A stretch of 64,000 nucleotides of DNA, taken from the NCBI RefSeq assembly GCF_000027125.1, contig NC_017626.1, one strand, 5' to 3'. This stretch comes from Escherichia coli 042. GTDB lineage: Bacteria; Pseudomonadota; Gammaproteobacteria; Enterobacterales; Enterobacteriaceae. The position numbers are program-made. Numbering within the stretch: the first letter of the stretch is position 1; every line of letters begins with the position of its first letter. Of the stretch, positions 33,001 through 36,000 are shown in pieces.

Positions 33001-36000
33001 TTTCTTTGGTACGCGTGTCGAGCACGTTTGGAGTGGGATAATAACTTTCATGTCTAATCCTTTTCGCTTTTTCTATTTAACTCTTAATAAGATTAATAAA
33101 TCTTTATATTCTGTTAATTGGTTATGCCAGATATTTTTAGACGAAGATATTTTGATCTTTTTTATACTCATCCACCCCTTCCTGAACATCCTCATAAAAA
33201 CCAACCGCATTATCGTCTTTAAACACAATCGCCACATCACAAAACTCTTTCAATGAATTCAAACTATGTGAAACCATTAAAAAACTAGATTCTTTATGCC
33301 TTTCTTTAAACAATTGAGCGCATTTTTCTTTAAACCTGGCATCACCGACTGCGGTTACTTCATCGACGATATAATAATCAAACTTAAATGCCATGCTTAA
33401 ACCAAAGCCTAAACGCGATCGCATACCAGATGAGTAAGTTTTAATCGGCATATCGAAGTACTTACCGAGTTCGGCAAATTCTTCGACAAACTCAATTTTC
33501 TCTTTCAGCTCTTCTTGCTTCGCGTATAACCGCGCAACAAATTTTACGTTTTCGCGTCCGGTTAAACTTCCCTGAAATCCACCTGCAAGGCCGACTGGCC
33601 ATGATATCGTTTTATTGGTGATGATCTTTCCACTGTCGGGGCGGTCAATGCCGCCAATCATTCTCAGTAACGTTGATTTACCCGCACCATTACGACCAAT
33701 AAAGGCAACACTTTTTCCTGAAGGAATTTCGAGGTTTAAATCCTTAAACACATAGTGTCGCCCCGTTGGCGTGCGATATGACTTCGTCAAATTCTCAATC
33801 TTAATCATGATGTCAGCATTGCCTCTTCACGCGTTCGGTATAACGCCAGACCGATGAACAGGGTGACCAGAGTGAACATTGCCAGGTAGTTCAGACTCAC
33901 GCCTTCGCTGATATAGCCAGGCATAACTGCCTCGCGGCTTAACTCCACGACATGCACTAATGGGTTCCAGAGTAGATATGACCAGTATTGCTTTGGAATC
34001 GAGTGTAGAGGGAACATGATGCAGGAGATGAAATACAGCGGCTTAAGCAGTATCGGCAGAACCTTTTGCATTTCGGGGAAAGTTTTACCAACGACCATGA
34101 ATATTAAACCGACGCCACATGAAAGAATGATCAGCAGGCTCCAGGTAGCCACAAGTTGTAAAAAATTTGTTATCTCGAAATATTCGCCTGCCATCCAGAC
34201 AATGAGCATAAGCAGAATATAAACAGCAACGTAAATCAGTGTCTCAAGCAGTGCGCGTGCAATGATCGTATCGATGGGTTTTACTGGTCGATAATTAAAC
34301 AGCCCCTGATTCGCTTCAATAGCACCTACAGAACGATTGCTGATACTGCTAAAGATAAAAAAGGGAATCAGGCCATTAAGTAAAAACACCGGGAATGAGA
34401 TGTCTGGCATCGTGCGGTGCATAATGTAACCAAAAATGCCCAACAGTATCAGCAAATGCGCAGAGGGTTCGAGAATCGCCCACAAATATCCCAGACGGAA
34501 CTTACCAAAGCGTGTTCGTATTTCTCGTAGAAATAATGCCTCTACGGTGACTTTCTGGACTTCAAATCCACTTCTTGCCATTTGATGATGTGATCCTAAT
34601 CTCTTCAGGTACGCTACCGCCCTTGGCTTAACAGCTACCAATACACTGGAGGTAATGCTTATTTGTAACTGGATAAAATTTACTCAGACGGTTTGACCTT
34701 TTTAATAGCCGCAAAAAATTTCAGCAGAAATTATTTCCGCAGGGATAAATAGATCTATTTCCGTCTCGTTTCTTCTAATCCATTCTTCAGGCATGAATGT
34801 ATTCGGTCTTCTGGTAATTTCAGAAAACTGGCCGTTTTAGAATGTAGAGTTAATTTCCCAGGAAATTATTTTTTGTTATTACTGTTAACTACTTGATTAT
34901 AATACCCCCATGGATTTTATGCGTAACAATACCTGCAATCTGTTTCAAACCAGAACGCACGCGATTGATTACCAATAAATTGTTCACCGAGAAACTATTT
35001 CCCTATTTAAAATTCACTCGTGTACTTCTTATTTATATCTACAGCCCCCTCTTTACAGTCATATTTGTGATTTATATCACATTTAAATGGTGTTATTTAA
35101 GTCGCATCAATAATCCCGAAGGTAATTATTTTCGTCGATTAAAATATACATCTTGATTATTTTGTGTATTTATTTTAACCAGTGTTACAACCAACACCAT
35201 CCCTCAGTAGATATACCTGAGCAGACATTTCTTAAAATCAACGAATAGTTTCACTGGAAATTATTATGCTTATTTGAAATTCCCTTTCTGATTATCTCCA
35301 GGAATTTTACTAATTTCCAAGCTACACAAAATACAGATCACACAAGAATTATCCTATATGTTTTGGCCTATCAATTGTTACTCAATGATTTATTGCAACT
35401 ATTAATAATCATAATGTGTCAAAACACTTAAGCAACTTTACAGTCTGAGAAAGGTGTCGATTAACGAAGGCTACATGGTGAAAAACAGGTTCCTTCAGTG
35501 TTACCGAATATTCCGTGGTGGTCTGGAGGGAGATAATTCTTGCTACATCGAAACTCAGCCCGGTGAGCGGGTTTGACAGTTCCGCACTCACCATTGGGCT
35601 AAGGGTTATCAGGTGGGGTTAAGGAAATGGCAATACCTACCCCCGTCCAAATTCCAGTCGCTGCACATTCACCATCCCAGGCTTCTCACCCGCACTGACA
35701 TCAATTTGTGTCACCCGCAGCGCATATTTTTCATCCAGTGCTTTTAACCAGTTCAGCAGGTCATTAAACACCACCGGATCTATCCAGACTTGAATATTCT
35801 CCCCACGCTCGGCTATCCGCTTGATGACCACCGAGTGCGCGGAAGCACTGTCACTGATGACCCGCGATACCTGCGCAGGCGTTGTTGTGGCAGATTTTCG
35901 CGCTGCAATAATATCCGGCGCGGCGTTCTTCAGTCGGGTGTTCATCGCCACCAGCTGCTGCAACATCGTCTCCTGTTGTTCTATCCGTTCGCTCAACGGC

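What the first reader, a model, noticed from the sequence alone, without database searches (positions are those of the whole stretch)
34582..35636. Region 3 leader with ops antitermination element about 33 bp upstream of kpsM
GGCGGTAG is present on the transcribed strand at 34614..34621 in a long AT-rich leader. This is the RfaH recruitment site that lets transcription read from kpsMT into the serotype-specific genes, consistent with all region 2 genes being co-oriented with kpsMT.
Basis: partly seen in the sequence, partly recalled or inferred. Interest (0 to 1): 0.3.

Follow-up and report, generated by a model that had tools for sequence, protein, structure and literature searches.

The report
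RfaH loading site before capsule genes
This is the well-known JUMPstart/ops signal in the long leader in front of the E. coli group 2 capsule export genes kpsMT, where the elongation factor RfaH boards RNA polymerase so that transcription carries on into the serotype-specific capsule genes; it is real, correctly placed and ordinary.

Summary
GGCGGTAG lies on the minus strand at 34621..34614, 32 nt before the kpsM ATG (34581). The 8-mer alone is not above chance: 2 copies in the window, 1.23 expected. But it sits inside a full-length Rfam JUMPstart match (34648..34610, 58.5 bits, threshold 35, E 7e-11 for the whole window).

The block from 34656 to the ATG is the most conserved part of the leader. 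It has one variable column in six leaders that are otherwise only 80-99% alike. About 1,600 of 5,426 complete E. coli genomes carry it.

All ten intact kps leaders examined have the 12-mer starting exactly 40 nt before the ATG. That includes CFT073, where published ChIP shows RfaH loading at this site.

The three region 2 genes are co-oriented with kpsMT and have 25-37% GC.

Corrections: ops acts as a pause and loading site on the non-template DNA strand. Only about 730-740 nt of the 1,055-bp interval is leader, because the published promoter maps to about 35320..35309; the rest is promoter-upstream DNA. The interval also holds the published CRP site and second promoter.

Verdict: already known, interpretation supported, low interest.

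The parts
34610..34621 (-). 12-nt ops element GGCGGTAGCGTA. G1 = 34621, G5 = 34617, T6 = 34616, pause base T11 = 34611, A12 = 34610. It matches 11 of 12 positions of the consensus GGCGGTAGCGTG.
   Evidence: The 12-mer starts 40 nt before the kpsM ATG in all 10 intact kps leaders examined. The CFT073 counterpart GGCGGTAGCATA is bound by RfaH in ChIP (PMC9765446 supplement).
34610..34648 (-). 39-nt JUMPstart element CAGTGTATTGGTAGCTGTTAAGCCAAGGGCGGTAGCGTA, with ops at its 3' end.
   Evidence: Rfam RF01707, full length 1-38/38, 58.5 bits against a gathering score of 35. The core is shared with wzi and galF leaders.
34582..34609 (-). 28-nt spacer between ops and the kpsM start codon. It holds a weak, far-spaced Shine-Dalgarno-like AGGA, 12 nt before the ATG.
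   Evidence: Invariant in six aligned leaders.
33805..34581 (-). kpsM, ABC-2 permease of the capsule exporter (258 aa).
   Evidence: Pfam ABC2_membrane. NCBIfam KpsM model E 2.7e-55, 188 bits, below its 300-bit curated cut-off. Annotated homologues.
33137..33808 (-). kpsT, ABC ATPase. It overlaps the end of kpsM by 4 nt.
   Evidence: Pfam ABC_tran and annotation of homologues.
26959..33051 (-). Region 2: three co-oriented serotype-specific genes. They are a 231-aa cytidylyltransferase, a 1112-aa Bcs3-like polymerase, and a 530-aa WcbI + hexapeptide acetyltransferase. GC is 25-37%.
35309..35333 (-). Region 3 promoter PR3/P1. It has the -10-like hexamer TATTTT (35333..35328). The start site is inferred at about 35320 (K5, 741 bp in Nissle coordinates) or 35309 (CFT073 RNA-seq start transferred by alignment).
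   Evidence: The '-13G' and '245G' mutant numbering in PMC12360894 lands on the first T of TATTTT and of TATAAA if +1 = 35320. Local conservation peak at 35360..35281. Positions are inferred by homology, not measured here.
35066..35081 (.). CRP binding site TGTGATTTATATCACA. The -10 TATAAA of the weaker internal promoter P2 is embedded in it (minus strand 35076..35071).
   Evidence: It is the only perfect TGTGA-N6-TCACA in the window. Sequence and distance (-492.5 from the ATG) are identical to the EAEC 042 kpsM CRP target (PMC12360894).
34582..35320 (-). 5' untranslated leader of the region 3/2 transcript, about 739 nt, AT-rich. This is the short length variant, which lacks a 116-nt segment present in CFT073.
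35321..35636 (-). Promoter-upstream part of the intergenic region. All of it is specific to the kps island, because homology with kps-negative E. coli ends at the yghD/gspM stop codon.
   Evidence: kps-negative genomes match only to window 35638. H-NS/SlyA footprints are reported for -135..-21 (PMC8960920).

Best explanation
This is the JUMPstart/ops element of the region 3 leader of an E. coli group 2 capsule (kps) locus.

Proposed sequence of events:

1. RNA polymerase starts at PR3, about 740 nt upstream of kpsM. A weaker, CRP-repressed promoter P2 lies about 250 nt further downstream.

2. Polymerase transcribes the AT-rich, H-NS-bound leader and reaches ops (34621..34610).

3. It pauses around T11 (34611).

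4. The non-template strand forms a small hairpin (C3:G8) that exposes G5 and T6.

5. RfaH binds this, displaces NusG, and stays with polymerase for the rest of the operon.

6. RfaH-modified polymerase resists pausing, Rho-dependent termination and H-NS/StpA filaments.

7. The refolded C-terminal domain of RfaH can recruit a ribosome to kpsM, whose start codon lies 28 nt downstream with only a weak ribosome-binding site.

The result is one transcript covering kpsM, kpsT and the three low-GC region 2 genes, about 7.6 kb in all.

Shown here: the sequence, its strand and position, family membership, and strong conservation. Inferred from homologous loci: the promoter position, RfaH binding and RfaH dependence.
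For: - Motif and spacing.
- Full-length JUMPstart covariance-model hit well above threshold, the only one in the window.
- Same core as the wzi and galF JUMPstarts.
- Present upstream of kpsM in about 1,600 of 5,426 complete E. coli genomes.
- The stretch 34656..34552 has one variable column in six leaders whose overall identity falls to 80%, making it the most conserved stretch of the intergenic region.
- The ops start is exactly 40 nt from the ATG in 10 of 10 intact leaders. A decayed, IS3-disrupted locus has drifted.
- Literature: ops 28 bp upstream of kpsM and RfaH-mediated read-through from PR3 is essential for region 2 (PMC8960920). RfaH ChIP signal at CFT073 kps, and RNA polymerase travelling ratio reduced to 0.1-0.34 of wild type for the wzx, kps and rfa operons without RfaH (PMC9765446). 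Recognition of the ops hairpin by RfaH (PMC5995543).
- No strong intrinsic terminators between kpsT and the operon end: 2 weak candidates against 3.7 expected. GC is 25-37%. Both fit a Rho/H-NS type barrier.
Against: - No experiment exists for this strain or this rare region 2 type, found in 13 of 5,426 genomes.
- Position 12 is A, not the consensus G. A G at that position is part of the consensus pause, and G12C abolished the U11 pause in vitro, although RfaH was still recruited. CFT073 kps also has A12 and binds RfaH.
- Region 2 may have internal promoters. Many promoter-like matches exist, but not more than shuffles give.
- The bare 8-mer is at chance frequency.
Confidence: 0.93

Rival explanations
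1. The GGCGGTAG is a chance occurrence in an AT-rich spacer and has no function.
For: The 8-mer occurs at chance frequency in the window: 2 found, 1.23 expected. A second ops-like 12-mer, GGCGGTAGCGAG, sits antisense inside kpsS at 26155..26144. It is catalogued in CFT073 without an RfaH peak.
Against: Full-length JUMPstart model hit, E 7e-11. Near-invariance across divergent leaders. Fixed 40-nt spacing in 10 of 10 leaders. Published RfaH ChIP at the homologous site.
Confidence: 0.01
2. The conserved block works mainly as RNA. In one version it is a structured element or small-RNA target around the kpsM ribosome-binding site. RyhB is proposed to pair with nt 32-75 upstream of kpsM and so activate translation. 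RfaH loading would then be secondary.
For: PMC11988350 reports predicted RyhB pairing over the ops region and GFP-reporter activation. Rfam annotates a small hairpin in JUMPstart, and the single variable column (A/G at 34623) keeps a U-A or U-G pair.
Against: The 39-nt and 87-nt RNAs fold no better than shuffles (z +0.85 and +0.46). The same core occurs in unrelated leaders (wzi, galF) with different downstream sequence. ops is read as non-template DNA by RfaH, as shown by crystal structure and mutagenesis. RfaH ChIP is direct evidence at kps. The two roles are not mutually exclusive.
Confidence: 0.05
3. ops and RfaH are present, but region 2 of this serotype is expressed mainly from its own internal promoters, so read-through from kpsMT matters little here.
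For: There are 85-237-bp gaps between kpsT and the region 2 genes. AT-rich DNA gives many promoter-like hexamers, for example upstream of 32118 and 33051.
Against: Promoter-like sites are not enriched over shuffles: 39 against 45.3. In K5, read-through from PR3 is described as essential for region 2 expression. In CFT073, RNA polymerase occupancy across the whole kps unit collapses without RfaH.
Confidence: 0.05

Closest known systems
kps region 3 leader of E. coli K5 (Nissle 1917 / Bi8337-41) and K2 (CFT073): PR3 promoter, long 5' UTR, JUMPstart/ops, kpsMT
   Same: The locus is the same, between yghD/gspM and kpsM. The leader is 97.8% identical to Nissle over 819 nt. The JUMPstart is identical to Nissle. 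The ops start is 40 nt from the ATG. The promoter block is the same, and so are the CRP site and its distance as in EAEC 042.
   Different: The ops 12-mer is GGCGGTAGCGTA here and in K5, but GGCGGTAGCATA in CFT073. The window has the short leader, about 739 nt, whereas CFT073 has 846 nt because of a 116-nt segment. Region 2 is a rare type, found in 13 of 5,426 genomes.
JUMPstart/ops elements of other RfaH-controlled operons (rfaQ/waa, O-antigen downstream of galF, group 1 capsule upstream of wzi, hlyCABD, tra)
   Same: They share the core TGGTAGCTGTTAAGCCAAGGGCGGTAGCGT and the position in a 5' leader on the sense strand. The expected mechanism is the same.
   Different: Position 12 is A in all kps leaders sampled, against G (galF, rfaQ, wzx) or C (wzi). 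The kps ops lies about 700 nt from the promoter, against 27-135 nt for rfaQ, wzx and hly in CFT073.

Membership tests
ops (operon polarity suppressor) / RfaH recruitment site | Core 8-mer GGCGGTAG, within the 12-nt consensus GGCGGTAGCGTG | tested here: met
   GGCGGTAGCGTA at 34621..34610, 11 of 12 positions. The bases needed for RfaH contact and the hairpin (C3, G4, G5, T6, A7, G8) and the pause base T11 are all present. A12 is shared with the RfaH-bound CFT073 kps and c1882 sites.
ops (operon polarity suppressor) / RfaH recruitment site | Lies on the non-template (sense) strand of a transcribed 5' leader, downstream of the promoter | tested here: met
   It has the same strand as kpsM. The published start sites of K5 and CFT073 map by alignment to 35320 and 35309, about 700 nt upstream. 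The promoter position is transferred by homology, not measured in this strain.
ops (operon polarity suppressor) / RfaH recruitment site | Consensus pause context: G at -10, pyrimidine at -1, G at +1 relative to U11 | tested here: inconclusive
   G1 and T11 are present, but the +1 base (position 12) is A, not G. G12C removed the U11 pause in vitro without blocking RfaH recruitment. The effect of A12 has not been measured.
ops (operon polarity suppressor) / RfaH recruitment site | RfaH binds there, and downstream expression depends on RfaH | not testable with these tools
   This is shown for the homologous site in CFT073 by ChIP-seq and a delta-rfaH strain, and stated for K5. No data exist for this strain.
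JUMPstart (Rfam RF01707) | 39-nt conserved element scoring above the curated gathering threshold | tested here: met
   58.5 bits against 35, model positions 1-38 of 38, posterior probabilities all high.
JUMPstart (Rfam RF01707) | Located just upstream of a polysaccharide gene cluster | tested here: met
   It lies directly upstream of kpsMT and region 2.
E. coli group 2 capsule (kps) locus | Region 3 (kpsMT) and the serotype-specific region 2 are co-oriented, converging on region 1 (kpsFEDUCS) | tested here: met
   kpsM, kpsT and three region 2 ORFs are on the minus strand. Six plus-strand ORFs at 18855..26850 have the sizes of kpsFEDUCS. kpsS is confirmed by Pfam Capsule_synth. The layout is the same in the annotated strain 144.
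E. coli group 2 capsule (kps) locus | Chromosomal position next to the gsp/yghD type II secretion operon, with a low-GC region 2 | tested here: met
   yghD/gspM at 35637..36173. Homology with kps-negative genomes ends at its stop codon. Region 2 GC is 25-37%.

The most novel reading that the evidence does not exclude
The kps ops may be a deliberately sub-consensus site. All ten intact kps leaders sampled carry A at position 12, where other RfaH operons have G, the +1 base of the consensus pause. The site also lies unusually far, about 700 nt, from its promoter, behind an H-NS/CRP-controlled leader and a conserved hairpin with a T-run at 34740..34724. A weaker pause could make RfaH loading sub-saturating and tunable. 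That would contribute to graded or heterogeneous capsule expression.
Probability: 0.12. Interest if true: 0.3.

Novelty: already known. Interest (0 to 1): 0.08.

Why it matters
The element links capsule export genes to serotype-specific synthesis genes in extraintestinal pathogenic E. coli, and RfaH is a recognised virulence regulator. For this window it matters only as annotation. It confirms that the locus is an intact, conventionally organised group 2 capsule cluster. It also implies that the rare Bcs3-like region 2 is under the standard PR3/RfaH control. Nothing here changes current understanding.

Tried and rejected
1. Significance of the bare 8-mer: at chance level, so I relied on the covariance model and on conservation.

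2. RNA-structure reading of JUMPstart: folding of the 39-nt and 87-nt RNAs is no better than shuffles, so it was not pursued.

3. A weak CRISPR-DR63 hit at 34882..34847 (E 0.075, below threshold): this is just the AT-rich palindrome AATAATTTCCTGGGAAATTA. The palindrome is one copy of the direct repeat that flanks the 116-nt leader indel. It is not a CRISPR repeat.

4. A snoRNA-like hit (E 4.7): noise.

5. ORFs inside the interval (34893..35156 on the plus strand, 35409..35594 on the minus strand, and the TTG-extended kpsM start at 34641): rejected as coding. Single-base indels among the aligned leaders break the frames, and all annotated homologues start kpsM at the ATG.

6. The promoter-scan hit TTGGAA-18-GATAAT (35320..35291): it does not coincide with either published start estimate, so it is not adopted as PR3.

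7. The primary paper on the leader (Xue et al. 2009, PMC2648368) is not held. The published -10 sequence and footprints could therefore only be placed indirectly.

8. The second ops-like site in kpsS (26155..26144): it is coding-determined, antisense to its gene, and showed no RfaH peak in CFT073.

Full report
**Observation.** The minus strand of the window reads ...CCTCCAGTGTATTGGTAGCTGTTAAGCCAAGGGCGGTAGCGTACCTGAAGAGATTAGGATCACATCATCAAATGGCAAGAAGT....

- GGCGGTAG occupies 34621..34614 on the minus strand.
- The kpsM start is the ATG at 34581. The mechanical ORF list extends to an upstream TTG at 34641. The 777-nt/258-aa gene annotated in every homologue, and the Pfam/NCBIfam alignments, begin at the ATG.
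- Thirty-two bases separate the 8-mer from the ATG, so 'about 33 bp upstream' is correct.
- Using the 12-nt definition (GGCGGTAGCGTA, 34621..34610), the gap is 28 nt and the element starts at -40. Both figures are the published ones (PMC8960920; PMC9765446 supplement).
- The interval 34582..35636 is exactly the kpsM-yghD(gspM) intergenic region.

**Is it more than chance?** The 8-mer alone is not. The window holds two copies against 1.23 expected, and 31 of 100 shuffles did as well. The wider element is:

- Rfam's JUMPstart model (RF01707) matches 34648..34610 at full length with 58.5 bits, against a gathering score of 35. The E-value is 3.4e-12 locally and 7.2e-11 for the whole 64-kb window, where it is the only JUMPstart hit.
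- Twelve 12-mers lie within two mismatches of the consensus, against 3.8 expected. Only two are within one mismatch: the leader site and GGCGGTAGCGAG at 26155..26144.
- The second site lies antisense inside kpsS, so it is constrained by the kpsS coding sequence. It is also present in strain 144. It is catalogued in CFT073 as a coding-region site without RfaH signal.

**Context.** The window is an E. coli chromosome segment.

- It carries the sslE-gsp type II secretion operon, ending with yghD/gspM at 35637..36173.
- Next come kpsM (33805..34581) and kpsT (33137..33808), then three further minus-strand genes, then six convergent plus-strand ORFs (18855..26850) with the sizes of kpsFEDUCS.
- GC is 32-36% in the leader and 25-37% in region 2, against 49-61% in gsp.
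- Genomes without kps match the window only up to 35638, the yghD stop codon. The whole intergenic region therefore belongs to the capsule island.

**Comparison with related sequences.**

- The leader occurs upstream of kpsM in about 1,600 of 5,426 complete E. coli genomes.
- I aligned six leaders spanning 80-99% identity: window, Nissle 1917 K5, strain 144, TUM1886, AVS0068 and Esc21.
- The stretch 34656..34552 is invariant except for one column. That column is A/G at 34623, which keeps a U-A or U-G pair in the small Rfam hairpin.
- Forty-base windows elsewhere in the intergenic region average 0.61-0.95 pairwise identity. Secondary peaks lie at 35360..35281, 35040..35001 and 34840..34761.
- In all ten intact kps leaders fetched, the ops 12-mer starts exactly 40 nt before the ATG and ends in A.
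- A decayed locus (strain 203740: kpsM pseudogene, IS3) has drifted to GGCGGTAGCATT, with further changes in the flanks. This is a useful natural contrast.
- Short hits of the same query elsewhere in E. coli turned out to be the JUMPstart copies upstream of wzi (group 1 capsule) and downstream of galF (O-antigen). They share TGGTAGCTGTTAAGCCAAGGGCGGTAGCGT with the window.

**Where the leader really starts.**

- The literature places PR3 741 bp upstream of kpsM in K5. Transferred through the Nissle alignment, this is window 35320. The window leader is 2 nt shorter than Nissle's.
- The RNA-seq-predicted start used for CFT073 gives a UTR of 846 nt. This maps to window 35309.
- The 846-nt against roughly 740-nt difference is explained by a 116-nt segment. 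It is present in CFT073, TUM1886, AVS0068 and Esc21 but absent from the window and Nissle. It is flanked by about 20-nt direct repeats, AATAATTTCnnGnGAAATTA.
- A -10-like TATTTT lies at 35333..35328.
- The mutant names '-13G' (P1) and '245G' (P2) in PMC12360894 fall on the first T of TATTTT and of TATAAA respectively if +1 = 35320. This supports that assignment, but it is inference, because I could not see the figure.
- The primary paper (Xue 2009) is not held.

So about 730-740 nt of the flagged 1,055 bp is leader, and about 315 bp is promoter-upstream DNA.

**Other known elements in the interval.**

- The only perfect TGTGA-N6-TCACA in the window is at 35066..35081 (0.09 expected).
- Its sequence (TGTGATTTATATCACA) and its distance from the kpsM ATG (-492.5) are identical to the CRP ChIP-seq target in EAEC 042.
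- In that strain CRP moderates P1 and sharply represses a second promoter, P2, whose -10 (TATAAA) lies inside the CRP site (PMC12360894).
- Both promoters lie upstream of ops, so both transcripts cross it.

**Mechanism.** This rests on established RfaH biology applied to this sequence.

- *Loading.* RNA polymerase pauses at ops. The non-template strand forms a small hairpin closed by C3:G8 that presents G5 and T6 to the RfaH N-terminal domain. Substitutions at positions 4, 5, 7 and 8 abolish recruitment (PMC5995543). Every one of these bases is present here.
- *Persistence.* RfaH then stays with polymerase through the transcription unit.
- *CFT073 evidence.* RfaH ChIP signal begins at the kps ops. 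Without RfaH, RNA polymerase occupancy falls towards background by the end of the unit; the RfaH-dependent travelling ratio is 0.1-0.34 for wzx, kps and rfa. The effect depends on H-NS/StpA filaments (PMC9765446).
- *Fit with this window.* The low GC of the leader and region 2 and the lack of convincing intrinsic terminators in the operon (2 weak candidates against 3.7 expected) fit a Rho/H-NS barrier rather than hairpin terminators.
- *Translation.* The only Shine-Dalgarno-like sequence is AGGA, 12 nt from the ATG. This fits the known role of RfaH in ribosome recruitment (my knowledge of Burmann et al. 2012; not tested here).
- *RNA or DNA signal.* Folding of the JUMPstart RNA is no better than shuffles, which fits a DNA-level signal.
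- *Possible additional layer.* A published proposal has RyhB pairing with this part of the kpsM mRNA (PMC11988350). It is a possible additional layer, not a replacement.

**Caveats.**

- RfaH dependence is inferred by homology.
- This region 2 type is rare: 13 of 5,426 genomes, of which three are near-identical. It has not been studied.
- Position 12 is A rather than the consensus-pause G. This is a kps-wide trait in my sample and is compatible with RfaH binding in CFT073.

**Verdict.** The feature is already known. Interest is low.

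Noticed in passing
window 35066..35081: A perfect CRP-type palindrome, TGTGATTTATATCACA, centred 492.5 bp upstream of the kpsM ATG. It is identical in sequence and distance to the CRP ChIP target in EAEC 042. It encloses the -10 (TATAAA, minus strand 35076..35071) of the published second kpsM promoter P2. It is the only such site in the window.
   Followed up: yes
window about 34866 (between 34870 and 34860); L012 (CFT073), L003, L004, L005: A leader length polymorphism. A 116-nt segment is present in CFT073, TUM1886, AVS0068 and Esc21 but absent from the window, Nissle K5 and strain 144. It is flanked by about 20-nt direct repeats, AATAATTTCnnGnGAAATTA, which are themselves palindromic. This explains the published UTR lengths of 741 and 846 nt. 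Its functional effect is unknown.
   Followed up: partly
window 26144..26155 (minus strand): A second ops-like 12-mer, GGCGGTAGCGAG, one mismatch from consensus at the pause base T11. It lies antisense inside kpsS, about 800 bp beyond the last region 2 gene, on the strand that read-through from region 2 would transcribe. It is conserved in strain 144 and listed for CFT073 c3691 with no RfaH peak.
   Followed up: partly
window 34724..34740 (minus strand): A terminator-like hairpin, GCGGAAATAATTTCTGC, followed by TGAAATTTTT, about 100 nt upstream of ops. The stem is kept with changes on both arms in the divergent Esc21 leader, but the T-run is not. Fold z-score is only -1.56. It could relate to the reported damping of transcription by the long UTR.
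   Followed up: partly
window 26959..33051 (minus strand): Region 2 is a rare type, found in 13 of 5,426 complete E. coli genomes. It has a 231-aa CTP_transf_3/PseF-like cytidylyltransferase. It has a 1112-aa protein with no Pfam hit that matches the Haemophilus influenzae type b capsule polymerase Bcs3 (PDB 8a0c, E 4e-18, residues 451-1022). It also has a 530-aa WcbI + hexapeptide acetyltransferase. This suggests an O-acetylated Hib-like capsule made by a Bcs3-type polymerase. The K type was not assigned.
   Followed up: partly
window 35637..35639: Homology with kps-negative E. coli genomes stops exactly at the yghD/gspM stop codon. The capsule island junction on this side therefore abuts the end of the gsp operon.
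   Followed up: yes
L006 (NZ_CP025913.1, strain 203740) 2501..3136: A decayed kps remnant. It keeps the upstream part of the promoter region, has a shortened leader, a drifted ops block (GGCGGTAGCATT) and a frameshifted kpsM fragment next to an IS3 element.
   Followed up: partly
window 54357..54578 (plus strand): A full-length match to the Rfam small RNA C0719 (297 bits), between the glc genes and sslE.
   Followed up: no
window 1..18000: No tRNA gene was found anywhere in the window, so the pheV end of the island is outside it. The left part carries island-type genes: the homologous locus in strain 144 has cbtA/yeeU toxin-antitoxin, DUF4942, radC and an IS110 fragment next to kpsF.
   Followed up: no
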